64,000 nt of DNA, taken from NCBI RefSeq assembly GCF_055900595.2, contig NZ_CM148325.1. One strand, 5' to 3'. Position 1 is the stretch's first letter. Each line of letters begins with the position of its first letter. Positions 30,364-57,220 of the stretch are shown here, in pieces. The notes beneath the pieces are model-generated. The model worked only from the letters and a program-made list of their open reading frames with translations, was not told the origin of the DNA and ran no database searches. The position numbers and the translations under genes were made by a program.

Positions 30364-30876
30364 GAGATGAATCATTAATAACAAGAAATCACTGACAAAC
30401 CACCTGTAAAAGGTCAATCATTTTAGTTCAATTTCCTTTGTCATGATTATATTTTTATCGTCCTGACGATACTATTAACAATTACAATATTTATACCCTC
30501 CCCTGAACAAACAGAAAAGAACTCATACATTCGTTTATAATTCTGGTAATCCTGGCATCATACGTTTAAAATTTAAGGTGTTTGTTTTATAATCATGGTT
30601 CCAAAGACTATTGGTCACCAGAAAATGCCAGCCTTTTCGTGCCAGCTATATTTGTCCAGTGTGTTACCCCATCCAAAAATCATCCACATCCTGATGTTAC
30701 GTTAGATATAGAGAAAACAGGTTGTACTGTGCAATATGCTAACCGCATAAGCGAATATAATTTCTAAGCTGATATTGTCTGGCTGTTGGGAGCTAAACAA
30801 TATAAATATCGCCAGTTGCCAGAACGGTTATATAGACCAGGAGCGTTTCGGCTCCTGGTCTGTTTCGGACATATTA

Positions 30877-39329: not shown

Positions 39330-42300
39330 CAGGCGCTCTCCTTATCTTGTGCAAAGAACGCCCAGGCCACTTTGTAATCGTCTTCGCGATCCGGCTTGAT
39401 AAACGGAGCCTGCCAGGTGACGGTACGGCGCTCGCCTTCGTCGCTGCGGGTATAGTCATCAAAGGTGACGCTGACGGTACCGGTTTGCAGATGTTTGACA
39501 TCATCCCAGCCGATAGCCTGATCGGTGCAGTCACCGCCGGTCCAGTCCGGGCTGTCGACGTTAAAGACAAAGCCGTTTTTCAGGTCAGCTTTACGCGCAG
39601 TGCGAGGCAAGCCAACGCCCACCAGCCCTTTGCTTGGGGTAAAGATAATGCGACCGTTTTGATCGTACCAGGTATCCGCTTCGTACTGGCGCATCACCGG
39701 GAACTGAACGCGATAAATGGTAAGCAGTTCTTCGAGGGTTAACCCTAGCGCCTGCGCCACCAGTACGTCGATTTCCACCAGCGCCTGACGACGACTGTAG
39801 TCAGAGCGTAAGGCGCAGTTACGCTGCCACTCTGGGGTCAGATTGGTGAAGAAATCCTGGGGAAGCGGCGGGAGATCGCGGCTCCAGCGCTGGGTGTTGA
39901 AGTCTGGGGTGTAGCAGGATTGCCAGAGATCAGCGTAATCTTTCGTTAACACATTCAAAGCTAATGCTCTTGAGTTTGCACTCATTAACTCAACATAAGG
40001 GAAGCCACGCAATGTTGATTCATAAACATCCGCCCGCCCTGTTGTTTTCAAATAAAAATCAGCCACTATTGAATGGCAAAATGCAGAGAAACTTAGCAGG
40101 TTTATTGGCTCTCTAAATGTTGTTGAGAGTACAGGGTGTATATGAGCAACGTGCTTTGGAACTATGCTGGATATCATCGAGCGTTCTGATGATGCCCCAA
40201 ACATTCTTCGATTAACAAAACGATAATAGTCCGTCACCTTCCTCGGCTCGTCTTCATCCTGCTCTTTCCACGAAACCCGTGGGGTGCGCTTTGCATACTC
40301 CTGTGCATCACAGGCTGGAATATAGTTAGTGCGCGGCAAATAGTCGTCGGGCAGAGTTAGCAATTCTAGGTTATCGTATGCTTTATTCGTGTCACAAACC
40401 GCTCTAGGCGTATTGTAGAAAGGATTGCCAACAAAAAAATGAGGGCCAGACAAAACCCATTGTGATGCTTCTTCCGGGAACTGTGTATGTCGCTCAATTG
40501 TACCATCGCTTTGCTGATTAGTTTCATGCCACATTTCTAGAGAATAATATTGCCCCTGCAAATCACCTAATCGCCTAGGTTGTTTCGCAAACTTTTCAAG
40601 TACTGCAACCAATTGAGTAGCATGTAACGCAGGAAGACGGGCTTCATGTGCTGTAGTGCCAGCACTATCATAGAGACGCGAGAAAAGACCTAATTGCTTT
40701 AAATTTACATGCAAGACTCGATCGAAATGTCCCTGAAAATTCCATTTAACCTTTATTTTACCATCAATTTCAGTTTCTTCTTTTATCCCCGGAACAATGC
40801 CTTCCCCTTTATGTTCAAAACACGCATCAATAGTTTGAGGAATAAATAAATTTGCTATATTTGAGAATGCCACTATCTGAGAATAGGGGCCATACACATT
40901 AATGCTAAATAATGTCTGGTTATGCACCTCAGTGAATAATTTCGTTTCATTAATAAACTGAAAATGCGCCCTAAGCCTCGGATATACCGACGCACGCAGC
41001 TGCCCGCCTTTTGGGTCATCATAAATCCCTTCCGGGTGCAGGAACCCTGCCACGCCTTTCTCTGCCCCCAGACGCCAGGCCTGCGGCAGGAAGCATTTAT
41101 ACAAGTTGGTCTGCACCCCGCGCAGTACCGGGTAGTTCTGCTGCGCATTGAGGAAGTTTTGCATCCCTTCACAGCCTTCATACTCGCTGCGCCAGGCCGC
41201 TTCCAGCGCCGGGATCTGGTTAAAGGTATCAATACGCAACGTTGCCAGCTTCGATGCACTCAGCTTACGCAGCACAAATTCCGGCTCGTAATCACCCAGC
41301 ACGCCCGCTTCCTGCCATTCCACTTTCAGCCACGGCGGGTTTCCGAGCATCAGGTCAAAACCGCCACGCTCGGCAAACAAGTCGCAGAACTCCAGATCCC
41401 AGTGGAAGAAACGGTGCTGCTTTCTCAGGGCATCGACAATCGCCAGACGCGGCAAATGACGGAACAACACCTCGGTTTTCAGACGACCAGCAACGGAAAA
41501 CAGCGAAGACTCTTCTCGCAGCAGGCCGTCTTCGGCAAACAGATCGCCAGTGGTGTGCTCCGCAACTTCAGTGACTTTTTCCGTGATTACAATCCCGTCG
41601 AGCAGGGTTTCAATCTCAAACAACCAGGTGCCGCGATCCGGTAACTCATCGGCTTTGTCGATCGGCCAGAACCACAGCGCGCACCAGTAGTCCATCACCC
41701 AACGCAGCTTCTGGTAGGCGCTGTTATCTTCAAGACGACCGCTAAAGGTTTCATCTTTACTGCTCAGCGAAGAACGCGTCTGCTCGCTGTTTTCTGCCGG
41801 CCACACCGGGTAGCTGTCGGCGGTTTTCAGACGTTCTGCTTTAAGTTGCTGGCGATAGGTGTTCCACAGAGCTTCCACCTTTTCGCTGATACGCTGCACA
41901 TCAGCAATCTCATGCCCGGCAAAGCTTTTAATAAACTCTTTGCGCCAGCTGTCCAGGGCTTTGAAGTCATCCGGATAACGCTGCTTAACAGTTTTATCGC
42001 TGTAGTTAGCCATACCGCCGTCGGGCAGCAGGAAGTGAAAAATCTGCGTCTCTTCACGCGGCGTGTTCATCGCCAGTTCGACCGGCTCGCTGTTAAGCCA
42101 GCTCGGATCTTTGGCTTTTTTGTAGGTCAGTTCACTCTTGTTGAACACCTGACGGCGCGCGCCCACCAGTGAGTTACCGCAGTGCAGCTGGTAACCAAAC
42201 CACGGTACAAAGGCATCGCCACTGATGGCGTTCAACCACAGCGACACTTCCGCCAGTTCCACCGCCACCGGGTTTAAGTCCACGCCGAAAACGTTGTTGT

Positions 42301-44251
42301 CGGCAATGTACATTTTCACCCGCTGTAACTCCTGGGTGTAACGATCCTGCGGAATACGGCGACCTTCCGCCTGCTGCTTGTGGAACAGATACGCTTCCGC
42401 CAGCTGGTTGATGGCTTCGTTAAGGAACGCCGCGCTGCCCATCGCCGGTTCGCACACGGTGAGGTTTAAGATGGCATCAGCTTTGGCGTGCGGATCGCTA
42501 ATGGGATCAATCTGCTCCTTAAACAGTTCTTTCAGGGCATATTTAACCAGTGAGCGGGTCAGCACTTCCGGGGTGTAATAAGAGGCAGATTTCTCACGGT
42601 CGCGCCCGGCCATACGGTAGATAAAACTGCCTTTGCGGTGAATGCGCAGACTGCCGTCTTTCTCGTAGACCTTCTCGTCTTCGTGGTATTTGCCAATCTC
42701 ATCCTTACTGACGAAGTAACCCGTCTCCAGCTCGTTAAACTCTTCCCCGGCTTTCTTCACCTCGTAGAGATCTTCGCTGGCGAAGAATCCGCGATAGGAA
42801 AGCAGCGCCTCATACACCGCACCTAACTGGTTGATACCCAACTGGCGATAAGAAATACGTCCGCGGCGGTTAAAGCGCCCTTTGCCCGGGCGGCTTAACG
42901 ACATCGCCTGGATAATCTGTTGCAGGGTTTCGTTACGGAATACCACGCGGTTAAGAATGCGGGTGTTGTTGGCATCGAAAAGATGACTTTCCAGACGCGG
43001 GACGCTGAACTGATGACTATGGATGGTGATCCGGTCGCCGCTCTCCAGGTCACTCTGTATTTTCACGCCGCCGTTGTAGCCTTCGCGCACCAGTTTAAAC
43101 AGCATATTCAGGCTGTCGTGGAAGTAGCGCCCGTTGCGATCTTCTTCGCTGGTCAGCGGGATCATCTCCAGATCGCGCAACGTTTCCAGGCTGTAACCTT
43201 GCAGATAGGTTTTGGCGGTCATTGGCGCATAACCCAGCTCCGGGCGCGCTTCAATGTAGAACAGGAACAGCAGGCGGTACATGTAACGCAGACATTCGCG
43301 GCTCAGTTCATCCGGGTCCACCGCACGGTTACCGGTATAGTTTGCCAGGCCACGGTCGATCAGATAATGCATCGCTTCGTTGCCCAGCAGCTCAATACTT
43401 TCGCGCAGGGCATATTTCAGATCTTCCGAAACACCAAACGCATGTTTGTGCGAATTGTCATCCAGCGAGTCAAGATAAGGTGCCCCACTGCCCGGCAGCA
43501 GCGAATCTTTATGTAGCAACACTGCCGTCGCTTTCAGCGTATCCGTTTCACGACGACTTAAAATCTCTTCAAAATCAAAACGTAGCAGACGGTTTTGCGC
43601 CCACTTAGTACGGTCCAACAACAATAGCTGACGGTTACCGAGCAGCAGCACAAAACGCGGCGGTTCATTTTGAGTGAAGACCGCCGTAGAGAGCAGATCC
43701 TGCCAGCTGCGATATTCACCGTTGGCTTTTTTGCGCAGGCTGTCGCGCTTATGTTTGTCGGTATCCGCCGGGAATTGCGCGGTCAGTAAAGAGAGCGCCA
43801 GCGGATCCAGCGTTCCTTCTTCCTGATCGTGTGCTTCAACAATCCACAGCCACGGGCTACCGTCAGTGCTGTTGTAACGCGCCAGTACCGGCAGTGGTGT
43901 ATCGTCATCCAGCATTTGGATCTGCGGCGTAATTTCGTAGCCCAGCGCCTTTAACAATGGCTGCCAGCGATTACGTTGATCGGCCAGACGCTGCGGGATC
44001 TGACGCTGTTTTTCGTGCTCGGCAAGTTTGCGGAAAAACTCAGTCGCCAGACTGTTAAACTGGTTCCACGGAGCGCGGTATCCCGGCTCTACGTCTTTGC
44101 CCTGTTCACGAGCGGCACGCTCCGCTTCACGCGCTGCATTTTCCTGGGCTATCCAGGGTTCCAGCACATCGCGGATATCACTGGTGAATACCTCACCCAA
44201 ATAGTGGTTAGAGTAAAATTCGTTTTCGTTATTAATACCGACCAGCGCCAT
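39329..44251 (-). CDS. Large (1640 aa) N6-adenine (amino) DNA methyltransferase, DrmMI-like
   Basis: AdoMet-binding motif I CEPAMGSAAFLNEA and catalytic motif IV GNPPW (NPPW = N6A/N4C amino-MTase signature); starts 2 bp after the SNF2 gene stop. Confidence 0.85.
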   Translation of the reverse strand: MALVGINNENEFYSNHYLGEVFTSDIRDVLEPWIAQENAAREAERAAREQGKDVEPGYRAPWNQFNSLATEFFRKLAEHEKQRQIPQRLADQRNRWQPLLKALGYEITPQIQMLDDDTPLPVLARYNSTDGSPWLWIVEAHDQEEGTLDPLALSLLTAQFPADTDKHKRDSLRKKANGEYRSWQDLLSTAVFTQNEPPRFVLLLGNRQLLLLDRTKWAQNRLLRFDFEEILSRRETDTLKATAVLLHKDSLLPGSGAPYLDSLDDNSHKHAFGVSEDLKYALRESIELLGNEAMHYLIDRGLANYTGNRAVDPDELSRECLRYMYRLLFLFYIEARPELGYAPMTAKTYLQGYSLETLRDLEMIPLTSEEDRNGRYFHDSLNMLFKLVREGYNGGVKIQSDLESGDRITIHSHQFSVPRLESHLFDANNTRILNRVVFRNETLQQIIQAMSLSRPGKGRFNRRGRISYRQLGINQLGAVYEALLSYRGFFASEDLYEVKKAGEEFNELETGYFVSKDEIGKYHEDEKVYEKDGSLRIHRKGSFIYRMAGRDREKSASYYTPEVLTRSLVKYALKELFKEQIDPISDPHAKADAILNLTVCEPAMGSAAFLNEAINQLAEAYLFHKQQAEGRRIPQDRYTQELQRVKMYIADNNVFGVDLNPVAVELAEVSLWLNAISGDAFVPWFGYQLHCGNSLVGARRQVFNKSELTYKKAKDPSWLNSEPVELAMNTPREETQIFHFLLPDGGMANYSDKTVKQRYPDDFKALDSWRKEFIKSFAGHEIADVQRISEKVEALWNTYRQQLKAERLKTADSYPVWPAENSEQTRSSLSSKDETFSGRLEDNSAYQKLRWVMDYWCALWFWPIDKADELPDRGTWLFEIETLLDGIVITEKVTEVAEHTTGDLFAEDGLLREESSLFSVAGRLKTEVLFRHLPRLAIVDALRKQHRFFHWDLEFCDLFAERGGFDLMLGNPPWLKVEWQEAGVLGDYEPEFVLRKLSASKLATLRIDTFNQIPALEAAWRSEYEGCEGMQNFLNAQQNYPVLRGVQTNLYKCFLPQAWRLGAEKGVAGFLHPEGIYDDPKGGQLRASVYPRLRAHFQFINETKLFTEVHNQTLFSINVYGPYSQIVAFSNIANLFIPQTIDACFEHKGEGIVPGIKEETEIDGKIKVKWNFQGHFDRVLHVNLKQLGLFSRLYDSAGTTAHEARLPALHATQLVAVLEKFAKQPRRLGDLQGQYYSLEMWHETNQQSDGTIERHTQFPEEASQWVLSGPHFFVGNPFYNTPRAVCDTNKAYDNLELLTLPDDYLPRTNYIPACDAQEYAKRTPRVSWKEQDEDEPRKVTDYYRFVNRRMFGASSERSMISSIVPKHVAHIHPVLSTTFREPINLLSFSAFCHSIVADFYLKTTGRADVYESTLRGFPYVELMSANSRALALNVLTKDYADLWQSCYTPDFNTQRWSRDLPPLPQDFFTNLTPEWQRNCALRSDYSRRQALVEIDVLVAQALGLTLEELLTIYRVQFPVMRQYEADTWYDQNGRIIFTPSKGLVGVGLPRTARKADLKNGFVFNVDSPDWTGGDCTDQAIGWDDVKHLQTGTVSVTFDDYTRSDEGERRTVTWQAPFIKPDREDDYKVAWAFFAQDKESA

Positions 44252-44253
44252 GA

Positions 44254-47112
44254 TTAACCCTCCGCTCCGGTGATAACAGCAATTACCTGAATGTAGGGTT
44301 CTTTTTCAGTCGTCATGGTGTCCTCAATCCATTCGATATAGCTGTCAAAATTGTGTTCGATTTCGCGTTGTCTCTGCTCTTTACGGCTCTGCTTAACTGA
44401 CAATTGCTGTTTGTTATCGGCAAAATCCAGCTCAAGTTGGCTCAACTGCCGCCCACGCAAAACGTCCAGCTTTTGCAGATGCTCATTCAGTTGCTGGTTA
44501 ATGTGCGTTTCAAACGCATTCCGATCATGGATGAATACCTCCCGGGCATGAGCAATAGCCGCTTCCAGTAAATCCTGCTGGCGCTGGTGATTACGATCTT
44601 TACCGCCGCTGTTAGTCAGCTTGTTACTCAACTGCGGATGACGTTGTAAAAACTCAGCGAATGGCTGACTGCCGATTAGCGATTCACGGTTAAAGCTCAC
44701 CACTATCCACGGGTTCACCATCGGATGTGATTTACGGTTCGGGAATAACCCGGAAAGAATGAAGTGATCTTCATCGGGTTCAAGCAGGTATGGCAGACGG
44801 ATAACCGGTGCCTGATGACGACCAAAAGCCGAAGAGATTTTATCGTCCAGCCACTGCACTACCGGGTTGATTTGCCAGAGATACTGCACATCGGGCCAGG
44901 CATGTTGCTCACCGCGAGCGCGTGCAATCGCGTCGGTGATGACGGTTTTATCCTGACTTAAAAAGAGCTGCCAGTTCTCCGGGGCGATTTCAGGCGGTAG
45001 CTGGTTGAAGCGGCGGCGTAACTCCTCCGGTGCCACCAGCGACAAGGTATTATCAGGCAAGGTTTCATACTGGATAGTTTGACCACTGGCTTTCAGGTAA
45101 CCCAATGCTCTTTCACAGTACGCCTGTTCGCTGGCAAACAAGCTGGTGTCTGTTTCGATGACCATTGAGGCATCGCTGGAAACCGCACTGCATATTTCGC
45201 CAAACAGATCGTGTTCGGCGCTTTCCGAGACGTTGCTGTTCAGCAGTTGATCAAACAGGCTGGCACCATCATCCTGCATCATGAACTCTGCAACCTGCTC
45301 TTCTTCCTCTTCCTGGGTAAATTTGCCGGTAAACTCCGAACTGTCCCCAATGTTCTTCTGCGCCTGTTCGTCTTTGTTGATCAACACTTCCAGTACGCGC
45401 ATATCGCCATTGATCTGCGGTTCGCTGGCCTCGGTAAGCAGATAGCGGATTTGAGGCTGATGTTTTTGCCCATAGCGGTCAATACGCCCGTTACGTTGCT
45501 GGAATACCATCAACGACCACGGAATATCAAAGTGAATCATTTTGTGGCTAAGGTGATGCAGGTTGATCCCTTCAGATGCCACATCCGAACAAACCAGAAG
45601 ACGCAACGGCGACTGCGTTTTACCAAAGGCTTCTACGGTTTCCATCAACACCGTATCGCCCTGATCGCCGCGCAGCGTGGCGATCTGATCATCTTTCAAT
45701 TTCAGATCCGCTCGCAGTTGCTGTTCGAGGAACTCCAGCGTTTTAATGCTTTCGGTGAAGATCACCAGGCGATCTTCCGTGTTATTGGCTTTCCAGGCGA
45801 GGTCTTTTCGGATGGTGTCGAGCAGCAACTGGTATTTGCTAAACTGGCTGGCATCAATGTTATTCAGCGCCAACAGCAATGACTCCAGTTCGTTGATCTG
45901 GCTCTGGCTATTATGATCTTTACGGCTCTCAAGACGCTTCAGACGATTAGCCACTACGCTGGCACACGCCATCGGGCTGGAAAATAGCGCTTTTTCGAGG
46001 GTTATCTTGAACAGACGACCTTTGTTAGACTGGGCCTGTTCATCGTCATCATCACGGAACTGACTCTCAACCAGGCGACGGTATGCTTCTTCTTCGGCAC
46101 CGGATGCCAGGCGAGTCAGTTTGACAATATTGCGCTCGGGGAACTCGCCAGACATCTGATCTTTCACGTCTTTTTTGAAGCGACGGACAACCAGATTTTT
46201 ATCGGCAAAGTCGGCGTATTCATACTCTTTCGGGTTGGCGATCGCCGTCGGGTCAAGCATGTTCATCAGGCTGGCAAAACTTTCAGCTTTACCATCATGC
46301 GGCGTTGCTGAAAGCATAATCAGCGTATCGCTGCGCCCGGCGAGCAGTTTTGCCAGTTTACTGCGTAACGAACTGGTTCCACGTTCTGCGACGTTATGGG
46401 CCTCATCAATGACAATAATATCCCACCAGGCATTTTCCAGATGGTGACGATATTCAATATCTTGTTTCAGCGTATCGATGGAGATAATGGTCTTGTCAAA
46501 ATAGTGGAACGGGTTGTGGTTGGTAGGGATGCGGTTACGCACTTTTTGTAAACCAGCAGAATCCAGGCGGGTCAATGGGATCGCAAAACGGCTCCAGAAC
46601 TCCTTCTGGAATTGTGTCAGCATCGATTTAACCGCCAGAACCAGAATACGTTTTCCGCGCCCACGACGGATCAGTTCCGAAACCAGAATACCCGCTTCCA
46701 GCGTTTTACCCAGACCGACAGCGTCGGCAATGAGTATCCGCTGACGCGGTTGTGCCAGCGCCATCCGCGTAGGATCGAGCTGAAACGGCATGGAATCCAT
46801 CGCCGCCAGATGTCCAAAATGGACTTTACTGTCTGTCGGTACGCGTTGGCGTAACTGACTTTCAATATACAACTGTGCCGCCTGATAATTGGCGGATTCA
46901 TCTTCCACCAAATGCGTTTTTGCGGGATCAAGGATCTCTACTTTTTGTTCCAGTTTGGTCAGAAATAACCCTTCTTTACCGCGCACAAGCTCTGAAATAC
47001 CATCGCAGGTCAGCAAATACCCACCATCACCACTGTCATCCGCCCGGCGAATACGCCATTCGGCATCACGAATAACCACCCGCATACCAGGTGCATAATT
47101 TTGCTTATTCAT
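44254..47112 (-). CDS. SNF2-family helicase/ATPase (952 aa), DrmD-like
   Basis: Motif I LIADAVGLGKTLEAG, motif II IIVIDEAHNV, motif III LMLSATPHDG, SNF2-type motif VI FQQRNGRIDRYGQ. Confidence 0.85.
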   Translation of the reverse strand: MNKQNYAPGMRVVIRDAEWRIRRADDSGDGGYLLTCDGISELVRGKEGLFLTKLEQKVEILDPAKTHLVEDESANYQAAQLYIESQLRQRVPTDSKVHFGHLAAMDSMPFQLDPTRMALAQPRQRILIADAVGLGKTLEAGILVSELIRRGRGKRILVLAVKSMLTQFQKEFWSRFAIPLTRLDSAGLQKVRNRIPTNHNPFHYFDKTIISIDTLKQDIEYRHHLENAWWDIIVIDEAHNVAERGTSSLRSKLAKLLAGRSDTLIMLSATPHDGKAESFASLMNMLDPTAIANPKEYEYADFADKNLVVRRFKKDVKDQMSGEFPERNIVKLTRLASGAEEEAYRRLVESQFRDDDDEQAQSNKGRLFKITLEKALFSSPMACASVVANRLKRLESRKDHNSQSQINELESLLLALNNIDASQFSKYQLLLDTIRKDLAWKANNTEDRLVIFTESIKTLEFLEQQLRADLKLKDDQIATLRGDQGDTVLMETVEAFGKTQSPLRLLVCSDVASEGINLHHLSHKMIHFDIPWSLMVFQQRNGRIDRYGQKHQPQIRYLLTEASEPQINGDMRVLEVLINKDEQAQKNIGDSSEFTGKFTQEEEEEQVAEFMMQDDGASLFDQLLNSNVSESAEHDLFGEICSAVSSDASMVIETDTSLFASEQAYCERALGYLKASGQTIQYETLPDNTLSLVAPEELRRRFNQLPPEIAPENWQLFLSQDKTVITDAIARARGEQHAWPDVQYLWQINPVVQWLDDKISSAFGRHQAPVIRLPYLLEPDEDHFILSGLFPNRKSHPMVNPWIVVSFNRESLIGSQPFAEFLQRHPQLSNKLTNSGGKDRNHQRQQDLLEAAIAHAREVFIHDRNAFETHINQQLNEHLQKLDVLRGRQLSQLELDFADNKQQLSVKQSRKEQRQREIEHNFDSYIEWIEDTMTTEKEPYIQVIAVITGAEG

Positions 47113-47180
47113 CGGTTTTTCTGTCTATTTGGGGCAGTGGCGGTAACGTCATCCTGAAAAATGTGGCGCGGCACACTGCG

Positions 47181-47217
47181 ATAAAAAAGAGGGCCTTAAA
47201 GATATCATGAAGGCCCC
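47181..47217 (-). terminator. Rho-independent terminator between the Druantia-like pair and the SNF2 operon
   Basis: On the minus strand: stem GGGCCTT/AAGGCCC (7 bp, 12-nt loop) followed immediately by TCTTTTTTAT; located 120 bp after the 2107-aa gene stop. Confidence 0.65.
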
Positions 47218-47335
47218 CGGCAAAGTGACAAAATGGGAGGGAATGCGCATAATTTGCGCATGATTTTCAAACAAAAATTATTAAAAAGTGAGCTGGGTCA
47301 ACTCCCCTGGAAGATATCCCCAGGGGAGCAATTAT

Positions 47336-50300
47336 TTATCCAGCGATAACATAACTCCTAAGGTCATTACCCGGGGCAACAGCTCGCGCTCGCGTGTTTG
47401 CCAGCCGTTCAACTTGCTGCGGTACTCGCAGAGCAAAATCAAAGAAGGTGTCTTCAATACAGCGCCAGTAGCTAAGCCCCATGTCGAGCAGGACATAATG
47501 CTGACTGCCATCGCTGAAGGTGACTGTCAGTTCTCGTCCATGCTCCGTACTCTGGTTATCCCCCGTTAACCAGCTAATTGCTCCCGGCCACGCAGGCCCC
47601 AGATATCCTTCTTCAAGTAAAGTGGTCACAACCTGCTGACGATCTTCCTCATTAAGCCACGCGTTATAGAGAGCGTTGTGTTGGCGAGAGTTGTAATCCA
47701 ATTTTTTGACGCAAACAGTGAGGCTGGCGCGTTCCGCCATTCCCTGTTCAACCAGCTCGGTTAAGATTTCACCTAACATACGCGCCGTGAATGGGCTATT
47801 AAGATAACGATCGCTGTACTCAACATGCGTTATCTCTTTGTGGCGGGTAAATGCCTGCTTCCAGCCAGCGTGCTGTTGCGTGACTAACGACCAGAAACGC
47901 GAACCAAACCCTTCCAGCGGCCCGTCCAGTTGCTCGCAGAGGTTGATGCGCACCGCCCCGGTGGGTAAGGCGGGCAGTAAATCTTCTGCACTTAAGGTCT
48001 GACCCGAGAAGGTTTTTCCGGACGTTCCTTTAAGTGTCACTACTGGTGAGGACGCACTTTGTCCCCATAATTCACCAGGTGCAACGGTAGCGCTGTCGTC
48101 TGCGGCCCACTGTTGGCTTTGCCCTTCGCGAGTCACCTGCGCAAGCCAGCGCCCCTTTCCTTGCATGAGTTGCGCAGTGGCAATGGATTTCACTTGTAAG
48201 CGTCCTCCCGGCATCGCCGCCAACGCGGAAAGCTGATGTCTGGAGCTATCAGTTAAGTTTTCCAGCGGCGTGGCCACCAGCAACTCAACATTCCCACCGG
48301 AGGAGGCAAACTGGAGCAACTCTTTAAATAATGGCCATTGGGCAAAGTCCCACTGTTCCTGCGGCCCCGCAAGAACCAGCGAGCAGGAGTCATAAATCTC
48401 GCTGTTCAGGCATTGCGCAATACGTAAACTCAGAGGGTTAGTTTCAACCCGGCTACCATCGACGAAGTACTGATATTCTGGCGCGAGGTTAAGTCGCTGC
48501 AACCGTACATTGGTAAGCAGGGTTAATGCATGGTGACGATCTAATCTGTTGACATAATGCTGACTGTCGTAGCTGAGCAAGCAGTGGTGACAGAATTTAT
48601 CGCAACTGCAATCGAGCAATTTTCTGGCGTAATTAAAGACATCAGCCCAATGGTCGATCAATTGCACTGCATAACCTGCACCACCCGCATTATTGTCGTA
48701 AATGAAGATGGAATATCCGGTATAGCCATTGATATCGCGCGCTTGCTGCGTCGTCACGCCCAGCTCAGTATTTTCGATACCCAATTTATGCGCTAACCCT
48801 TCACGCAAAGCGACCGCAAGGGAACGCGCGGCAACCTCATCACGGATCAACAGGCCATTATCATCATTGAGTTGCAGCTCAACCATATCTGTACGACTGC
48901 TATACCCCAACCACAGATCTTTATGCACATGACCGTGGCACAATTTATTGCTCCCCTGACGATCGTTACTGCCCCCTCGCAACAGGTAATGCGTATTTTC
49001 CCGCTCTGGGTTCTTTAGATTTTCAGGGGTACGCTGGGGTTGAGTTTGAGATTCTGCCCGACCACATGAGAGGCAAATTGCGTAGCCGTGCCCAAATTCC
49101 CCTTCACTGAAGTGGAACAATTCCCCACTATGGCTAAAACGGTAACGTCCTAGCCCAGCATCGGGTAAAGAAACCCACACCGAAGACGGTACAAGAACAC
49201 GTGGATCTTTCCAGGGAAGTTGTGCAGGCATGGATACATCATTATGTGCCTGATAACGAATATCTGTCGCAAAACCAACAGGCTGTAAATAACGCTTCAC
49301 ATCAAGTTGCTGTATATCCGCTTTGCAGTGACTACATTCGACAGGATGGGTAGCACTGGTTGCCCCCGCACCACATTTACGGCAATGCCAGAACCACGGA
49401 ATATGATGATCGCCTGACAGCTCCTGCCCGCTGGCAAGTACCTTGCCAAGCATAATGCCCGAGGAACGATATACTTTTCCGCCCAATACCACATCTGCAC
49501 CAGGCGCATACTCGCGTAATGCTGTAGGTAGATCACGGCAGGGCAATTTTTCAATACGACGAGAAAAGCTTTCTCCCCCTTCATTAGGGTCAGCCTGAGT
49601 AGCTTTTATTGCGCGACGTTTTTCCAGCTCATCTGCCGTCAGATAATTGAAATTGACGACACCAACCGGGAAACCATGCCCTGGCAGGAACGCTTCACTA
49701 ATGAGTTTAGAAAACAGATATGCACCGCGATAATCACGAAGCTGATAAGCGATGGCTTTACCTGCTGGCGTTTCTTCCCACGCGCTGTTATCCGCTTTCA
49801 ACGCTTCGATATTTTCCAACAGTATCGCAAGTTGGCTTCTCCAGCGGATATCAACCTGCTGCATCATTGCTTGTGTGCGGGTCAAGAGCTGGGTTGCCGT
49901 CAATGACATCAGGACGGTTCCCTGAGTAAGGCGTTTAAGTTTATCCGCCAGCTGATCGGCCTGGTTATTTAACCAATGGAGAAAACGAAGACACTGGCTC
50001 TCATCACCTTCAAAGAACCATTTGCAACTCAGTTTTGTCGCATCAGGAACTTCAGCTCGTAAAAACAGACCTAAAACCAGGGCATTAACATGTCGTTGAA
50101 CAATACTGCTGCTCCCAAAACGAACCCGTGGCGCACTGGCAGTAGTGTTGAACGCCCAGAGGGGGTCTTTGAATACCTCCATTCCATGCGCCGTGTTTTT
50201 ACATAACGTAATGGCAGCAGATGCACTCTCTCCACGTCGACCCGCGCGGCCTGCACGCTGCAAATAATTTGCCGGAGCTGGAGGAACGTTGTTCATTGCC

Positions 50301-53300
50301 ACCAAACTCATACCACCAATGTCCACCCCCATCTCCATGGTCGTGGAGCAGTTCAGCACATTAACTTTGCCTGACTTAAATTGTTTTTCATTAAACTGGT
50401 TCTGCTCAGGCGTTCTCTGCGCAGAGTGTTCCTCCAGACGATACCAGCTATCTTTCAGGGCCAGTCGGTCGCTGCGAGTAGACCATAATCCTTCCTCGCG
50501 GGCATGTTGAATCAGCGCATTACTTTCCAGCCACTCCAGGCGTTCTTCTCGGGCGATTTCTCCACCACCAGACAAACGCCAGTGACGTACAGGAAGCTCA
50601 GGCATTTCAATCAACACTGCTTTTTCAGGTGCAATTTCTTTGCTACCCGGCAAATACGGAGAGTATCCCAGCAACGTGACGTCTAACGCACGTCGAGTAT
50701 AGGGGCAACGCCACACTTGCTTTGGACTGTAAAATTCAGCCTGTTGTTTAATATCCAGCTGATAACCCGACTCAAACTGACGTAAGCAGGGTCGAATTGC
50801 ATCCCAGACCTCAATCATTAAGTGGTTAACTAACGATTTCCAGTGAGCCTGCTCAGGTTGTATTGCCGGAAAGACTGCAATTAATAGCTTAATGACCCGG
50901 TTATAATGGCGATCGCGTATTTGTGGCCAAAGTTGATCACGTTTCTGCCCTTTGTTTTTTTTATCTGGACCCTGGAGCATTTTTACCGGGAAACGAGCCC
51001 CCATCCAGCGAGGGTATTGCTCGTTTTCGTAAAAAACGGCACTGTTTTCACGTATAAAGAAATCAAGAGTAATCTTCAATAAATTACGCCATTCCGCTAA
51101 TTGCTTATCGGGATCGGGTAATAATGTCTTCCAGTCCTGCGGGCAGGTTGTAACTTTATCAATAAATGGATAGTGAATGGCTACCAGACCCAGACTTTCG
51201 AGGGTCCAGGCATTTTTAGGGCGGCGACCAAATTCACTGTATAAACAAAAATCTGCAAACTGTTGTTTAGTAAGATCAAGCCCAGACAATTCTTTAAAAC
51301 TGCCTCTCATTCTATCGGCAAGGTCCACACTGCCAACCAGCTGTTCAGACAGTGTTTGCCATGACATGGTTTTCTTCTGCTGATTGCCAGAGTTAGCCTG
51401 GAGTATTTGCATCGCTTCAGCATGATCCGGGCTTAAGGAACTCACCATCGGCTCGATAATTTTAAGTGCCTGAATGTCCGCCGGGCTAAGCTCTTCATTA
51501 GCAACCATCGATTTTTTCAGCGCGTCAATAGAGTTTTTTAAAGGAAGGATAGAAAACTGGGCAATAAAACTCTCTAACAATGCGCAGTGTGCCGGGCTGA
51601 GCTTTGCTGATGGCTCATTAATATTGGCCAACTCCTGGTAGCAAAGAGCTCGCAACGTCGCTTTATCGGCATCCTGCTGTAAGCGGGCAGAAATGCGGGC
51701 AGTGCCCTGACGTGAATCCGTAAAGGTGAGCAGACGTCGACCATTAAACGGTCCTAACTGCTCTTCTCTTGTCTGCGGTAATGGTGAAAACTCCAGCAGA
51801 GTAGGAATAATTTCATTTAAAAAAAAGGGCGCGCCAAGTCGAAGCGGACGGAATAAAGGATTATTTTTTCGTTGGGTGTCACCACAGCAAACACAAGCAA
51901 AGGAATTATTACGTCCCTCACCTCGAGATTCCGGTCTTAACAGGTTTATTTCATAGTGCTTTTGCGCTTCACTATCAATTTTCCCCGCCGTCGTTTCTTC
52001 CAGTGAAATGATATATTTTTCACCATCGCTCGCAATCAGACGATCAAATTGAGAGTTATTGTCTAATTCGTCGTTGTCTTCATCTTCAGAATAAACATCT
52101 ACATCAAGAGCAAACTCATCCACTTCGGCAGCGGCGGGTTGCGCTACCAACCAGTTCGTTCCATCACCGCGCATCTCCTCTTTGGCAGACAAATAAGCTG
52201 AACCACACCCGGAGCAACGTAAAACTTCAAATACCGGCGCACCACAGTCACAATATTGGCGCTGCTCAAACCATACCTGACCAAATGGCCAGTCACTCTG
52301 ATTTAATTCATGTGCTTTATGTGAGCATTGTTTGTTTGAACATGCCCATAGACCCGCCAGTGTTCTGATAAATCCATGCATACGTAATGGCGTAAAAGCC
52401 AGTTCACCTTCTCGCGATCTTGCCATTAGATCGAGGAGTTGCAGTAGCTCACGGTGATTAATATCTGGCCAGGTTCTTCTGGCAACATTGAGCAACTCAC
52501 TCAAACGTACTGCCTGCCGTCCGGGATGAGTTAACGCCTGACGCAATTGCTGGGCCACACGGTAATGACAAAGCTGTTGGTAAAGATCCTGAGGGCTCAG
52601 AGATTTAAGAGAAGTTAAAGATGTGGGGTATTCATGACGAATCAGCGACTCCGATACCCGCGGTATTTGTCGATAGCCGCGAACCACTTTGACATCACGT
52701 TCTGTAACGCCCGCAAGATCAGCGACAAATTTAGCAAGCTCCTTATTACCTTCAGGAGAGTCTTCACCAATAGTGGCAGAGGTCGCGATAATCTGCACAG
52801 GTTTATCTGTGCCAGGTCCAACATTGAAAGCCTGCATAACACGACGTAAAAGCAGCGCTAACTCAGCAGCCTGAGAACCAATATAACTATGGGCTTCATC
52901 CAGGACGATATACTTTAACATCCCCTGAGACTTTTCGATGATTGGGGCATCTTTACGACGAATCAGCATATATTCCAGCATGGTGGTATTCGTCACCATG
53001 ATGGAAGGTGGTGCTTCGTAAATGGCTTCCCGACTCAAAGCTTGTTCAGGTACTTTCAACTGATCTTCCTGAACTTCGTATTTGGTATGCCGGGTTTCGC
53101 CATTATATAGCGCGAAGCGTATTTTCCCCTTAAATCCGCGCGTCCATTCGCGAAGCCGCTCCTGTTGGCTGTTAATTAATGCATTTAACGGATACAAGAA
53201 AATAGCTTGTGTCCCTGTTAGTGACTGACGGGTCGATTTTTGCTGACGAATAAGATCTTCCAGGACCGGTACCATAAAGCATTCTGTTTTCCCGGATCCC

Positions 53301-53659
53301 GTACCGCTGCTCACTAACAAGGATTTTTTGTCTTCCAGAATTGTTCGCCACGCAGTGAGTTGATGACGAAATGGCACTGGCGCTTTGCTCAATGCATCAA
53401 CCTGCGGGCTGGAGATCAGCTTGTCCCGCAAATCCTCCATTGTTTCATCCGCAGGCATCCAGCCGAATGTACTTTCGAATACCGGGCCTGCAAGCAGTGA
53501 CCCCTCCTGACCGGGAGGCTGAAAATATTGTGATTCCAGATAATGAGTCAACGACTTGCTCCGCAATGCCAACTGACTTACCACCGACCTCACCGCACGC
53601 TGATGAAGCTGATTTAGAAGTGGCGCATAATGCAGTTGCTGAACGTCCATCAATGACAT
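47336..53659 (-). CDS. druE: Giant (2107 aa) DEAH helicase with DUF1998-like Zn-ribbon C-terminal region; Druantia DruE-like
   Basis: Motif I LVSSGTGSGKTECFMVPVL, motif II YIVLDEAHSY, motif VI QRAGRAGRRGE; Cys clusters CRKCGAG...CSHCK, CLSCGR, CSCDKFCHHC; start overlaps upstream gene by 10 bp. Confidence 0.7.
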   Translation of the reverse strand: MSLMDVQQLHYAPLLNQLHQRAVRSVVSQLALRSKSLTHYLESQYFQPPGQEGSLLAGPVFESTFGWMPADETMEDLRDKLISSPQVDALSKAPVPFRHQLTAWRTILEDKKSLLVSSGTGSGKTECFMVPVLEDLIRQQKSTRQSLTGTQAIFLYPLNALINSQQERLREWTRGFKGKIRFALYNGETRHTKYEVQEDQLKVPEQALSREAIYEAPPSIMVTNTTMLEYMLIRRKDAPIIEKSQGMLKYIVLDEAHSYIGSQAAELALLLRRVMQAFNVGPGTDKPVQIIATSATIGEDSPEGNKELAKFVADLAGVTERDVKVVRGYRQIPRVSESLIRHEYPTSLTSLKSLSPQDLYQQLCHYRVAQQLRQALTHPGRQAVRLSELLNVARRTWPDINHRELLQLLDLMARSREGELAFTPLRMHGFIRTLAGLWACSNKQCSHKAHELNQSDWPFGQVWFEQRQYCDCGAPVFEVLRCSGCGSAYLSAKEEMRGDGTNWLVAQPAAAEVDEFALDVDVYSEDEDNDELDNNSQFDRLIASDGEKYIISLEETTAGKIDSEAQKHYEINLLRPESRGEGRNNSFACVCCGDTQRKNNPLFRPLRLGAPFFLNEIIPTLLEFSPLPQTREEQLGPFNGRRLLTFTDSRQGTARISARLQQDADKATLRALCYQELANINEPSAKLSPAHCALLESFIAQFSILPLKNSIDALKKSMVANEELSPADIQALKIIEPMVSSLSPDHAEAMQILQANSGNQQKKTMSWQTLSEQLVGSVDLADRMRGSFKELSGLDLTKQQFADFCLYSEFGRRPKNAWTLESLGLVAIHYPFIDKVTTCPQDWKTLLPDPDKQLAEWRNLLKITLDFFIRENSAVFYENEQYPRWMGARFPVKMLQGPDKKNKGQKRDQLWPQIRDRHYNRVIKLLIAVFPAIQPEQAHWKSLVNHLMIEVWDAIRPCLRQFESGYQLDIKQQAEFYSPKQVWRCPYTRRALDVTLLGYSPYLPGSKEIAPEKAVLIEMPELPVRHWRLSGGGEIAREERLEWLESNALIQHAREEGLWSTRSDRLALKDSWYRLEEHSAQRTPEQNQFNEKQFKSGKVNVLNCSTTMEMGVDIGGMSLVAMNNVPPAPANYLQRAGRAGRRGESASAAITLCKNTAHGMEVFKDPLWAFNTTASAPRVRFGSSSIVQRHVNALVLGLFLRAEVPDATKLSCKWFFEGDESQCLRFLHWLNNQADQLADKLKRLTQGTVLMSLTATQLLTRTQAMMQQVDIRWRSQLAILLENIEALKADNSAWEETPAGKAIAYQLRDYRGAYLFSKLISEAFLPGHGFPVGVVNFNYLTADELEKRRAIKATQADPNEGGESFSRRIEKLPCRDLPTALREYAPGADVVLGGKVYRSSGIMLGKVLASGQELSGDHHIPWFWHCRKCGAGATSATHPVECSHCKADIQQLDVKRYLQPVGFATDIRYQAHNDVSMPAQLPWKDPRVLVPSSVWVSLPDAGLGRYRFSHSGELFHFSEGEFGHGYAICLSCGRAESQTQPQRTPENLKNPERENTHYLLRGGSNDRQGSNKLCHGHVHKDLWLGYSSRTDMVELQLNDDNGLLIRDEVAARSLAVALREGLAHKLGIENTELGVTTQQARDINGYTGYSIFIYDNNAGGAGYAVQLIDHWADVFNYARKLLDCSCDKFCHHCLLSYDSQHYVNRLDRHHALTLLTNVRLQRLNLAPEYQYFVDGSRVETNPLSLRIAQCLNSEIYDSCSLVLAGPQEQWDFAQWPLFKELLQFASSGGNVELLVATPLENLTDSSRHQLSALAAMPGGRLQVKSIATAQLMQGKGRWLAQVTREGQSQQWAADDSATVAPGELWGQSASSPVVTLKGTSGKTFSGQTLSAEDLLPALPTGAVRINLCEQLDGPLEGFGSRFWSLVTQQHAGWKQAFTRHKEITHVEYSDRYLNSPFTARMLGEILTELVEQGMAERASLTVCVKKLDYNSRQHNALYNAWLNEEDRQQVVTTLLEEGYLGPAWPGAISWLTGDNQSTEHGRELTVTFSDGSQHYVLLDMGLSYWRCIEDTFFDFALRVPQQVERLANTRARAVAPGNDLRSYVIAG

Positions 53660-56600: not shown

Positions 56601-57009
56601 CACCTTCACAAGCCAGTGTATGCAGATAACCCGAAGCTTGCCCCAGGTTTCTTATCTTTCTTTTCCAGTAGCGAATGCCATCATTAACCAGCTTCTGTCG
56701 ATGAACATACGGAACTTTCCAGTCAATAGAATCTAAAATTGTGTCCCATTTAGGGTGTCCGACCGTATGAGTCCGGCGGATAAACTCTGCGGCATATATG
56801 CTAAATAGAACATCGCTATAGGAAATGAATATCGTTCTTGGATAACTACGGGGGGCATATGTACGCAGTAGTTCTGCCAAACTTTCGTACTCTGTATCAG
56901 TACAACGGTAAGCATATAACGCCCGTCCATCAGCTCCGGATAATGAACGGCGACTAAAAAACATGTTAAGCCATTGCAAAAGTGGGTTAACTGGAGTTTT
57001 CACAAGCAA
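53650..57009 (-). CDS. druH: Large (1119 aa) protein without recognisable catalytic motifs; Druantia type III DruH-like partner of DruE
   Basis: Long uninterrupted ORF, no P-loop or nuclease motif visible; translationally coupled to the DruE-like gene; size and pairing match what is described for DruH. Confidence 0.55.
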   Translation of the reverse strand: MLVKTPVNPLLQWLNMFFSRRSLSGADGRALYAYRCTDTEYESLAELLRTYAPRSYPRTIFISYSDVLFSIYAAEFIRRTHTVGHPKWDTILDSIDWKVPYVHRQKLVNDGIRYWKRKIRNLGQASGYLHTLACEGGLPIRMIENESGYLITYFRRIYQALRGQASQYPAAKIAQKLGDTIPVTMQNELVYEIAGEFCETLCRLLSEHPPQSSDPVSALRKLSPDWHLQLPLVLPEANAAEIVRRLLSQSSEIRSASSLQVERIWVDVDDSWYCDARFRFPATMRTEQLTSLFECNIQPEQTRLIISGKWRNGGARLAMLSRYEQQDWRVELLPIAMQKLSGADAMAEISLSLHEGPILLGHTIPKGGYELTEELPWVFEAMNESESQLKLVGMGSVSSRLNALFISLPKNSHLDISGEGEFDIPRLLKNSERSLTKISGVFSVVLHDGAVCTIRTQQLYDSAIEYYIKSTEVELVKSDYPVHRAWPKIGWKKDLQYGIVPEKELFWRSIRSGNNAWYSVASEMPKGQIEVRRIVNDEVLFSGKVVVLPADFDINIIPESAQQGIIMLSGITDTRIDKYTNNEKVTLKSDYSQNECAIYYNSSQMLENTVDLRVSWKDGSNLKLLLPKPVSGGRFVTNDGSVHFDGVASIAHLHGIDAELLTMSCAGRGYLNIELLDENPVAEKFRYLHADLPLLSGRNDKLQQISLYENYNLLNSMLACAWNSNSTLCVDFYSDRFGKDKATLNIKRYDGSFIEHDQGLLVDIKNSVVFPANRIDELVVDAISLKDPGLHKSLLKKDEFAYDLSALNVQDSPWLIVGKLDGTARIAPVIKWMLPVLQTNDLLLNALCEADPEQRKKKFNELIFEIDNNPLQNYCCLLTEYIKKYKMNNGLSLLDLDLFRGISSNYRVVVQLLISSCLSGDSDTIYDIQEELPFSWGWIPVSIWKDVFQKCWAYLEKQINDKTLALHILQPFIAFMNHRAHIDRRLAPIANMLLTYSESLPTGCDVLPTVSREQFNEAKQMLLRNPDSFGRISIFPKELWSSAITPELKSVFNKLWIEDKYHSRLEKRFNLMLVAALLTQKDNNLIHQLSALFEFHYQQAPQQLGVIYQYYFEQAGVCH

Positions 57010-57220
57010 CCTGCCTTCCTTTGATACAATTCGTAACAGGTTACTATCATCATAAAAAAGCTCAACCCGATGAACTCGCTAAAAATGAGACAAATCATTT
57101 ATATCTCGAAAAAACTTGTTACAATCATGAGCGCTACACCGAACTTAACCATATAAATTATGTGCGTTTTGTTTATTTTTTAAACAATTACAACTATCCA
57201 TTATTTACACAGGTATCAAA

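What the first reader, a model, noticed from the sequence alone, without database searches (positions are those of the whole stretch)
47113..47335. Druantia-like and DISARM-like modules are separate transcription units
Seen in sequence: a canonical intrinsic terminator on the minus strand (GGGCCTT stem, 12-nt loop, then TCTTTTTTAT) sits at 47181-47217 between the DruE-like stop (47336) and the SNF2 start (47112), and a second 9-bp hairpin (CTCCCCTGG/CCAGGGGAG, 47302-47328) lies just after the DruE-like stop. So the six co-directional giant genes are not one operon; the SNF2 operon promoter must lie within about 70 bp upstream of 47112.
Basis: seen in the sequence. Interest (0 to 1): 0.4.

Follow-up and report, generated by a model that had tools for sequence, protein, structure and literature searches.

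The report
Spacer between Druantia III and ARMADA II

Summary
The window is E. coli ATCC 8739. The six minus-strand genes are Druantia type III (druHE) and ARMADA type II (armABCD), a published locus (O-island 172 of EDL933).

Both hairpins are at the stated coordinates. HP1 (47329-47301, -21 kcal/mol) follows the druE stop. HP2 (47218-47189, 9 bp, 12-nt loop, -15 kcal/mol) is followed by U6.

The view that these are two transcription units is supported:
- Genes overlap or nearly abut inside each module, but 223 bp separate the modules.
- Published work cloned exactly these 223 bp plus armABCD, antiparallel to the vector promoter, and obtained defence.
- druHE also works alone.
- ARMADA II occurs without Druantia in other taxa.

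Two parts of the interpretation fail. HP2 is not a conserved terminator: only its 3' arm and T-run are conserved (38/43 identical to Serratia-type loci), the 5' arm is complementary in 11 of 36 variants, and Druantia-ARMADA junctions in Siccibacter, Serratia and Yersinia lack it. The promoter is probably not in the last 70 bp. The only promoter-like motif kept in all Enterobacterales and Aeromonas orthologues (not in the Vibrionaceae loci) is an extended -10 (TGnTATCTT, 47207-47199) inside the HP2 loop.

HP1 is structurally conserved through compensatory changes. No transcript data could be reached. The result is ordinary and largely already known.

The parts
53650..57009 (-). druH (Druantia type III)
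   Evidence: PADLOC DruH3, full length, E=0. NCBIfam STY4851/ECs_5259 family, 988 bits.
47336..53659 (-). druE (Druantia type III YprA-like helicase); its start overlaps the end of druH
   Evidence: PADLOC DruE3, residues 9-2105, E=0. Pfam DEAD, Helicase_C, MZB. Identified with Z5898 of EDL933 from Li et al.'s gene numbering.
47301..47329 (-). HP1: a 12-bp GC-rich hairpin (9-bp core 47328-47302) 7 nt after the druE stop, with no adjacent U-tract. Probable 3'-end or stabiliser hairpin of the upstream operon.
   Evidence: Energy -21.2 kcal/mol. In 36 variants, 92.8% of cells are paired and 6 of 9 pairs show changes on both sides. Energy is -15 kcal/mol or better in 31 of 36. It follows either druE or an unrelated 743-aa gene.
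47296..47301 (-). TTGACC, a -35-like hexamer abutting HP1 (candidate promoter P_A, with AATTTT at 47279-47274)
   Evidence: TTGAC is nearly invariant in Enterobacterales. PWM score is 7.1 in E. coli and 10.4 in the Siccibacter type (TATCGT), and weak in the Serratia type. It is lost in L120 and L100, which keep armA.
47262..47277 (-). Recombination seam between the upstream module's 3' flank and the ARMADA 5' region
   Evidence: L003 keeps homology only upstream of about 47262. L120 and L100 keep it only downstream of about 47277-47270.
47243..47261 (-). Small hairpin ATGCGCA/TGCGCAT
   Evidence: Present in the minimum-energy fold. 80.6% paired across variants, with mostly one-sided changes. 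Absent in the Serratia type.
47189..47218 (-). HP2: a 9-bp stem with a 12-nt loop, a terminator hairpin specific to the E. coli type
   Evidence: Energy -15.1 kcal/mol. One of 4 strict terminator hits in the window. Only 62% paired across variants, with 5 of 9 pairs broken. Stable in 11 of 36. The G47215A variant weakens it to -8.5 kcal/mol.
47181..47188 (-). TTTTTTAT tract after HP2
   Evidence: Read directly. Invariant in all Enterobacterales orthologues, whether or not a hairpin precedes it.
47199..47207 (-). TGaTATCTT, an extended -10-like motif inside the HP2 loop (candidate ARMADA promoter P_B; predicted start near 47192)
   Evidence: TGnTA(T/C)(T/C)CT is kept at 86-87 nt from the ATG in the E. 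coli, Siccibacter and Serratia types and, by eye, in both Aeromonas loci. The TG is lost only in the 1218KP remnant, where ARMADA has been deleted. It is an inference, not a mapped start.
47167..47209 (-). The most conserved non-coding block: CATGATATCTTTAAGGCCCTCTTTTTTATCGCAGTGTGCCGCG
   Evidence: 38/43 identical between the E. coli and Serratia types. By comparison: HP2 5' arm 3/9, flanking stretches 49% and 31%, last 60 nt of druE 48%.
47113..47179 (-). Probable armA 5' leader: helix GCAGUG (47179-47174) with CACUGC (47139-47134), then an A-rich translation start region with no Shine-Dalgarno match
   Evidence: RNAalifold and single folds. Vibrionaceae loci have a covarying GCAG...CUGC-style hairpin at the same place. 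z-scores are not significant in E. coli.
44254..47112 (-). armA (SNF2/BrxHII-like helicase of ARMADA II)
   Evidence: PADLOC DrmD 1.5e-99. NCBIfam DISARM_DrmD 350 bits, below the 610 cut-off. 100% identical to EDL933 ArmA.
39329..44251 (-). armB (PglX/type IIG-like adenine methyltransferase)
   Evidence: PADLOC REase_MTase_IIG 6.6e-288, Pfam Eco57I. Residues about 1100-1450 differ strongly from EDL933.
32988..39329 (-). armC (YprA-like helicase with MZB/DUF1998)
   Evidence: Best PADLOC hits are DruE models. Pfam DEAD, MZB. 99% identical to WP_000937974.1, the ARMADA II reference in Bell et al..
30877..32991 (-). armD (UvrD/GajB-like helicase)
   Evidence: PADLOC GajB 2.7e-36, Pfam UvrD-helicase.
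30834..30861 (-). 11-bp GC hairpin 15 nt after the armD stop, also without a U-tract
   Evidence: The 71-nt stretch containing it folds at -24.1 kcal/mol, z -4.5. Same style as HP1 after druE.

Best explanation
The 223-bp spacer is the junction of two autonomous defence modules. It has two halves.

Upstream half (47335 to about 47270): this is the 3' flank of whichever module sits upstream. HP1 is a structurally conserved RNA hairpin that marks and probably stabilises the 3' end of the druHE transcript. It is at best a weak terminator, because no U-tract abuts it.

Downstream half (about 47277 to 47113): this is the portable control region of ARMADA II, which travels with armA across genera. 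Its core is a highly conserved block. I read that block as an extended -10 promoter (TGaTATCTT, 47207-47199) followed by the start of a leader of about 80 nt.

In the E. coli lineage, the otherwise free promoter spacer (47218-47210) has become complementary to the conserved sequence just downstream of the -10. A transcript arriving from druE therefore folds HP2 in front of the conserved T-run and terminates. A transcript that starts at the ARMADA promoter lacks the 5' arm and is not terminated. The terminator thus insulates ARMADA from Druantia transcription without a separate element.

What is shown: both hairpins; their conservation patterns; the modular breakpoints; published functional autonomy of both modules.

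What is inferred: that HP2 terminates in vivo; which promoter is used; where transcription starts.
For: 1. Gene spacing: overlaps or a 2-nt gap inside modules, 223 nt between them.
2. The gap is exactly 223 bp in five lineages where DruE is 77-100% identical.
3. The spacer goes with armA, not druE. The same region lies downstream of an unrelated 743-aa gene in Enterobacter wuhouensis, Mangrovibacter and Citrobacter.
4. Breakpoints cluster at about 47262-47277.
5. HP1: 6 of 9 pairs show compensatory changes and 92.8% of cells are paired.
6. HP2: 62% of cells are paired. It is stable in 11 of 36 variants. The 5' arm is 3/9 identical to the Serratia type, while the 3' arm, T-run and following bases are 38/43. 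All three 5'-arm differences between the E. coli type and the Siccibacter type create pairs.
7. TGnTAyyCT is kept at a fixed distance from the ATG in all Enterobacterales and Aeromonas orthologues.
8. HP2 is one of only 4 strict terminator hits in 128 kb of strand, and all four lie at gene ends.
9. The pARMADA insert starts at 47335, is antisense to Plac, and is active. druHE alone is active.
Against: - No 5' or 3' end mapping could be reached, so both termination at HP2 and the start site are untested.
- The 12-nt loop is longer than in typical E. coli terminators.
- A common E. coli and Klebsiella-plasmid variant (G47215A) weakens HP2 to -8.5 kcal/mol. Selection for the hairpin is therefore not strong.
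- The -10 hexamer TATCTT matches only 4 of 6, and its PWM score (6.4) is lower than that of two other candidates in E. coli.
- Vibrionaceae orthologues lack the TGnTA motif. They carry TAATAT, TACTAT or TATCAT where E. coli has the T-run. The T-run region might therefore be the -10 itself.
- The pARMADA result is a phenotype. It does not exclude read-in from vector sequence.
Confidence: 0.55

Rival explanations
1. One reading: HP2 is a conventional terminator of druHE, and the armABCD promoter lies entirely downstream of it, in 47113-47180.
For: HP2 plus U6 is a good terminator in this strain. The 223-bp region contains promoter activity according to published cloning. A start in this stretch is possible if the T-run TTTTAT (47186-47181), with ATGATA as -35, is the promoter. 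The PWM scan flags that hexamer in the Serratia type, score 6.0.
Against: The only sigma-70-like match in or near 47113-47180 is TAGACA-18-CAAAAT (47127-47098). Its -10 lies inside armA, so it cannot express armA. PWM scans of 15 orthologues find nothing recurrent there. 47166-47131 is the least conserved stretch (11/36 identical to the Serratia type). The stretch forms leader-like helices. TTTTAT lacks the critical A at position 2, and its spacing to ATGATA is not kept in Aeromonas.
Confidence: 0.12
2. The promoter is P_A, directly after HP1 (-35 TTGACC 47301-47296, -10 at about 47279-47274). The arm mRNA then has a leader of about 160 nt. In the E. coli lineage HP2 would be a leader attenuator, or the terminator of a short RNA of about 85 nt.
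For: TTGAC is nearly invariant in Enterobacterales. P_A scores 10.4 in the Siccibacter, Citrobacter and Mangrovibacter types and 7.1-7.2 in E. coli. There is a weak Rfam sRNA-type hit at 47176-47266 (suhB/mmgR, 23.4 bits, E 0.018).
Against: The -10 is poor in E. coli (AATTTT) and absent in the Serratia type (score 3.9). L120 and L100 have lost HP1, TTGAC and the -10 but keep the rest and an intact armA. The Rfam hit is far below the gathering score of 41 and matches an alphaproteobacterial family. With P_A, a strong terminator would sit in front of a defence operon that is active without known induction.
Confidence: 0.15
3. The six genes are largely co-transcribed from the druH promoter. The hairpins are RNA stability or processing elements, and any internal promoter only supplements read-through.
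For: All six genes are co-directional. druE and this spacer are linked to armA in 527 of 528 E. coli genomes that carry any part of the junction query. The two systems act synergistically. In L018, druE and armA overlap by 4 nt. Most Druantia-ARMADA junctions outside the E. coli type have no U-tract terminator.
Against: In this strain a 9-bp GC hairpin plus U6 lies in the path. ARMADA is fully functional from the 223 bp alone. ARMADA heads its own unit in most taxa. Linkage in E. coli can be explained by inheritance of one island.
Confidence: 0.15

Closest known systems
Zorya II - Druantia III - ARMADA II defence island of E. coli (O-island 172 of EDL933; ATCC 8739 locus; Bell et al. bioRxiv 10.1101/2025.09.15.676423; Li et al. 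bioRxiv 10.1101/2025.09.22.677730)
   Same: It is the same locus. The window is 100% identical to ATCC 8739. The gene order and products match, and ArmC is 99% identical to the paper's ARMADA II reference protein. Both papers already treat druHE and armABCD as separate operons or systems.
   Different: Neither paper maps transcripts or describes the hairpins, the conserved block or the modular seam in the spacer.
Rho-independent (intrinsic) terminator
   Same: HP2 has a GC-rich stem immediately followed by six U. It is on the sense strand, downstream of a stop codon.
   Different: The loop is 12 nt. The hairpin is not conserved among orthologous junctions. Its 3' arm and U-tract are conserved for a different reason and overlap promoter-like motifs.
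Extended -10 (TGn) sigma-70 promoters
   Same: TG at -15/-14, plus T at -12, A at -11 and T at -7, are kept in all Enterobacterales and Aeromonas orthologues. No good -35 is needed for this class (established knowledge).
   Different: Untested here. The hexamer TATCTT is a 4/6 match. Vibrionaceae orthologues lack it.
DISARM class 1
   Different: The DrmD model scores below its cut-off. The helicase is closer to DruE than to DrmA. There is no PLD (DrmC) gene, and a UvrD/GajB-like gene is present instead. The locus is therefore classified as ARMADA II.

Membership tests
Intrinsic terminator | Stable GC-rich stem-loop on the transcribed strand | tested here: met
   9 bp (6 G-C, 1 G-U, 2 A-U), -15.1 kcal/mol, z -2.4.
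Intrinsic terminator | U-tract immediately 3' of the stem | tested here: met
   UUUUUUAU starts at the base after the stem. HP1, by contrast, has only UU and then 13 nt before a U5 run: not met for HP1.
Intrinsic terminator | Short loop (typically 3-8 nt) | tested here: not met
   The loop is 12 nt. The tool's scan, limited to loops of 3-8 nt, does not report HP2.
Intrinsic terminator | Hairpin maintained in orthologous loci | tested here: not met
   62% of cells paired, 5 of 9 pairs only broken, stable in 11 of 36 variants.
Intrinsic terminator | RNA 3' ends at the U-tract in vivo | not testable with these tools
   No Term-seq or RNA-seq data were reachable.
Druantia type III | DruH followed by DruE (YprA-like helicase with MZB/DUF1998) | tested here: met
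   PADLOC DruH3 and DruE3, full length, E=0. Pfam MZB in DruE.
ARMADA type II | Strict order: BrxHII/SNF2-like helicase, PglX-like methyltransferase, YprA-like helicase, GajB-like helicase | tested here: met
   Domain hits. The order is seen. ArmC is 99% identical to the reference WP_000937974.1, and the same strain was used by Bell et al.. The RelE-like N-terminus of ArmD was not tested.
DISARM class 1 | DrmA, DrmB (DUF1998), DrmC (PLD), DrmD and DrmMI | tested here: not met
   DrmD model 350 bits against a cut-off of 610. ArmC matches DruE models (1e-103) far better than DrmA (4e-14). No PLD gene.
Separate transcription units | Own promoter upstream of the second unit | tested here: inconclusive
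   Supported indirectly by the published pARMADA construct, whose insert begins at 47335, and by conserved promoter-like motifs. No start site has been mapped.
Separate transcription units | Modules occur independently in other genomes | tested here: met
   druE is upstream of armA in 8 of 80 species loci. The other loci have different or divergent neighbours. Within E. coli the two are always linked.

The most novel reading that the evidence does not exclude
The transcriptional coupling of two synergistic defence systems may be an evolvable setting written in the promoter spacer of ARMADA II. In the E. coli lineage, the unconstrained spacer of a conserved extended -10 promoter became complementary to the promoter's own discriminator and initial transcribed region. 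That would create a terminator overlapping the promoter, one that stops Druantia read-through but is invisible to ARMADA's own transcripts. Sister lineages have no such terminator. One lineage has fused druE and armA into a single translationally coupled operon.
Probability: 0.3. Interest if true: 0.4.

Novelty: already known. Interest (0 to 1): 0.2.

Why it matters
This has practical value for people working on the locus. Synergy experiments delete one system and read the phenotype of the other, so it matters whether ARMADA expression depends on Druantia transcription.

The analysis says the published deletions and the pARMADA clone keep the whole control region. It places the likely promoter at or inside HP2 rather than next to the ATG. 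It also shows that strain variants (G47215A) and other genera may differ in read-through.

Beyond that, the spacer is a routine operon boundary in a locus already described in the literature.

Tried and rejected
- **Known RNA family.** Rfam at permissive thresholds over 46900-47600 gave only sub-threshold hits. The best was suhB/mmgR, 23 bits against a gathering score of 41. Rejected as chance.
- **Small protein genes in the spacer.** ORFs of 21-41 aa exist. However, orthologues differ by 1-nt and 9-nt indels, so no reading frame is conserved.
- **Repeat family (REP/ERIC-like).** HP1 is unique in the window, even allowing 3 mismatches.
- **Integron attC-like site.** GTTGACC does not fit GTTRRRY. 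This is my own reading, not a tool result.
- **Plus-strand promoter-like site 47225-47253 (10/12).** By eye, its -10 is not conserved in the Siccibacter type in the alignment.
- **Experimental transcript ends.**
  - The EDL933 Cappable-seq table is stored only for about the first 0.06-0.6 Mb of the genome and holds no Z589x tags.
  - The Sakai Term-seq paper has no stored supplements.
  - Full-text searches for Z5899 and ECs5260/5261 found only the two papers already known for this locus.
- **Viral contig scan** for the conserved block: no match.
- **Long-range partner for the HP2 3' arm in Serratia-type loci.** None was found by eye. Short-range folds give about -1 kcal/mol.
- **Start-codon-sequestering helix** UUUAUCG/CGAUGAA from RNAalifold. 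Both sides are invariant, so there is no covariation, and single-sequence z-scores are about -0.6. Kept only as a note.

Full report
**Identity of the locus.** The window is E. coli ATCC 8739 (100% identity). On the minus strand lie six genes:
- druH, 57009-53650
- druE, 53659-47336
- armA, 47112-44254
- armB, 44251-39329
- armC, 39329-32988
- armD, 32991-30877

PADLOC gives full-length DruH3 and DruE3 matches. It gives DrmD-like, type IIG methyltransferase, DruE-like and GajB-like matches for the other four. Pfam and NCBIfam agree, and the DISARM DrmD model stays below its cut-off.

The same island in EDL933 is O-island 172, with Zorya II on the other strand. [quoted passage not shown] They use ATCC 8739 and EDL933, and they call druHE and armABCD separate operons or systems. 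So 'Druantia-like' is Druantia type III, and 'DISARM-like' is ARMADA type II.

**The observation.**
- HP1 is CTCCCCTGG/CCAGGGGAG. It extends to 12 bp (47329-47301), -21.2 kcal/mol.
- HP2 is GGGGGCCUU/AAGGCCCUC (47218-47189), with a 12-nt loop, -15.1 kcal/mol, followed by UUUUUUAU.
- The whole spacer is more structured than shuffles, z -3.7.

A strict scan of both strands of the window for perfect-stem hairpins abutting a U-tract gave four hits. All four sit just after a gene end on the right strand, and HP2 is one of them. Shuffled windows gave 0-2 hits.

**Evidence for two units.**
- Inside each module the genes overlap or are 2 nt apart. Between modules there are 223 nt.
- Bell et al. cloned ARMADA II 'under its native promoters'. 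Their primer FN1701 starts the insert at ATAATTGCTCCCCTGGGGATATC, the first base after the druE stop (window 47335).
- The Gibson overlaps place the insert antiparallel to the lac promoter of pBeloBAC11. From my memory of the vector sequence, the backbone primers also exclude the T7 and SP6 promoters.
- That construct protected against phages and needed all four genes. A promoter therefore very probably lies within the 223 bp. This is a phenotype, not a transcript map.
- Their Druantia deletion arm (TG179 = window 47286-47335) leaves the whole spacer in place.
- A 2026 preprint shows that druHE alone, with its putative native promoter, protects MG1655.

**Comparative anatomy.** A protein-guided scan gave 80 species loci with an ArmA homologue.
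- DruE lies directly upstream in 8 of them. The gap is exactly 223 bp in Escherichia, Siccibacter, Serratia, Enterobacter and Yersinia. It is about 127-129 bp in two Vibrionaceae.
- In an uncultured gammaproteobacterium the gap is -4 bp: the druE stop and armA start share ATGA.
- Elsewhere ARMADA II is preceded by unrelated or divergent genes.
- Within E. coli, the druE 3' end (529 genomes) and the junction (527-534 genomes) are always together.

Aligning the spacers shows that the region from HP1 to the ATG goes with armA, not with druE. In Enterobacter wuhouensis, Mangrovibacter and Citrobacter it lies downstream of an unrelated 743-aa gene. In seven E. coli genomes the same arrangement has lost ARMADA to an IS911-like insertion.

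Other rearrangements define a seam at about 47262-47277:
- 141 E. coli genomes keep only HP1 plus about 45 nt after the 743-aa gene.
- Two metagenomic loci (L120, L100) keep only the part downstream of the seam, with an intact armA.

**HP1 compared with HP2.** The comparison uses 36 distinct spacer versions. These were partly found with a pattern inside the conserved block, so invariance of that block in the metagenomic subset is by construction.
- HP1 is paired in 92.8% of cells, and 6 of its 9 pairs have changes on both sides.
- HP2 is paired in 62% of cells, and 5 of its 9 pairs depart only by breaking.
- Folding each version gives HP1 at -15 kcal/mol or better in 31 of 36. It gives a hairpin abutting the T-run at -8 kcal/mol or better in only 11 of 36, all E. 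coli-type plus one relative with GAGGGCCTT.
- Druantia-ARMADA junctions of Siccibacter, Serratia, Yersinia and Enterobacter fold at 0 to -1.8 kcal/mol there.
- A common E. coli and Klebsiella-plasmid variant (G47215A) weakens HP2 to -8.5 kcal/mol.

Yet the 3' arm, the T-run and the next 14 nt form the most conserved non-coding block. In loci found through protein only, 47209-47167 is 38/43 identical between the E. coli and Serratia types. That compares with 3/9 for the 5' arm, 31-49% for the flanking stretches and 48% for the last 60 nt of druE. The T-run is therefore conserved for a reason other than termination.

**What the block may be.** A PWM scan of the orthologues, together with the alignments for Aeromonas, finds one promoter-like element at a fixed position in all Enterobacterales and Aeromonas orthologues. 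It is an extended -10, TGnTA(T/C)(T/C)CT (47207-47199 in the window), 86-87 nt from the ATG. The TG is lost only in the remnant locus that has lost ARMADA.

There are other candidates:
- TTGTCA-16-CATGAT (47231-47204). It is weaker in relatives.
- P_A: TTGACC (47301-47296) with a variable -10. It is strong in the Siccibacter type, weak in E. coli and Serratia, and missing in L120 and L100.
- The T-run itself. Vibrionaceae have TAATAT, TACTAT or TATCAT at that place.

Downstream, RNAalifold and single folds suggest a leader helix GCAGUG/CACUGC. They also suggest a possible pairing of UUUAUCG with the start-codon region. Vibrionaceae have a covarying hairpin at the equivalent place.

The last 70 bp have no usable sigma-70 match. 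The only one (47127-47098) has its -10 inside armA.

**Most likely mechanism.**
- HP1 is the 3'-end hairpin of the upstream operon. armD is followed by a very similar 11-bp GC hairpin, also without a U-tract (30861-30834; the 71-nt stretch containing it has z -4.5).
- The downstream half of the spacer is ARMADA's portable promoter and leader.
- In the E. coli lineage, the promoter spacer has become complementary to the sequence just after the -10. Read-through RNA from druE then forms HP2 in front of the conserved T-run and terminates. RNA started at the ARMADA promoter lacks the 5' arm.
- All three differences between the E. coli and Siccibacter 5' arms create pairs. This is suggestive but weak evidence of selection.
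- Termination in vivo and the start site remain inferences.

**What could not be done.** The EDL933 Cappable-seq start-site table is stored only for the start of the genome. The Sakai Term-seq supplements are not held.

**Verdict.** It is wrong about where the promoter must be, and it overstates the terminator, which is lineage-specific. The locus and its division into two systems are already published, so the finding is ordinary.

Noticed in passing
L002 11007-17944; also L003, L006, L007, L015, L093, L099, L105, L121: An unannotated two-gene module (1569 aa and 743 aa, overlapping by 4 nt) occupies the slot of Druantia III directly upstream of the same HP1-spacer-armA block in Enterobacter wuhouensis, Mangrovibacter, Citrobacter and several metagenomes. 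It also stands alone in about 141 E. coli genomes. It has no hit in PADLOC, Pfam or NCBIfam. It is a candidate uncharacterised defence system that alternates with Druantia III.
   Followed up: partly
L018 7900-8060: In an uncultured gammaproteobacterium, the druE stop and the armA start overlap (ATGA). [quoted passage not shown]
   Followed up: partly
window 39329-44251 (ArmB residues about 1100-1450): ArmB of ATCC 8739 and EDL933 is nearly identical except for a stretch of about 350 residues that is 35-75% identical. ArmA, ArmC and ArmD are 99-100% identical between the strains. This looks like a swapped target-recognition domain of the methyltransferase.
   Followed up: partly
window 30834-30861: There is an 11-bp GC-rich hairpin 15 nt after the armD stop, without a U-tract (the 71-nt stretch containing it folds at -24.1 kcal/mol, z -4.5). 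It has the same style as HP1 after druE.
   Followed up: partly
window 47113-47188: RNAalifold pairs UUUAUCG (the end of the T-run) with CGAUGAA (the armA start codon). It also pairs GCAGUG with CACUGC. There is no Shine-Dalgarno match upstream of the ATG, and the stretch ACAGACAGAAAAACCG is conserved. This could mean control at translation initiation, but there is no covariation.
   Followed up: partly
window 47225-47253, plus strand: A promoter-like site, GTGACA-17-CATAAT (10 of 12), points antisense into the druE 3' end. By eye, its -10 is not conserved in the Siccibacter-type spacer in the alignment.
   Followed up: partly
L014 7850-7990 and L016 7848-7990: In two Vibrionaceae Druantia-ARMADA junctions (about 127 nt) there is a different strong hairpin. 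Its loop again contains the deeply conserved TCATG motif, but no U-tract follows it. A second hairpin just before the ATG covaries.
   Followed up: no
window 57010-57220: The divergent druH/zorA control region holds 5 promoter-like sites, against 1.1 expected from shuffles, and no terminator-like site.
   Followed up: no
L001 (EDL933) and L002: The island sits between fragments of nanM and sialate O-acetylesterase genes next to nanC and the fim operon. Integrase and transposase remnants are present. Some RefSeq records still name DruE 'motility-regulating DEAH-box RNA helicase', following a 2013 paper. A 2026 preprint reports no such effect.
   Followed up: no
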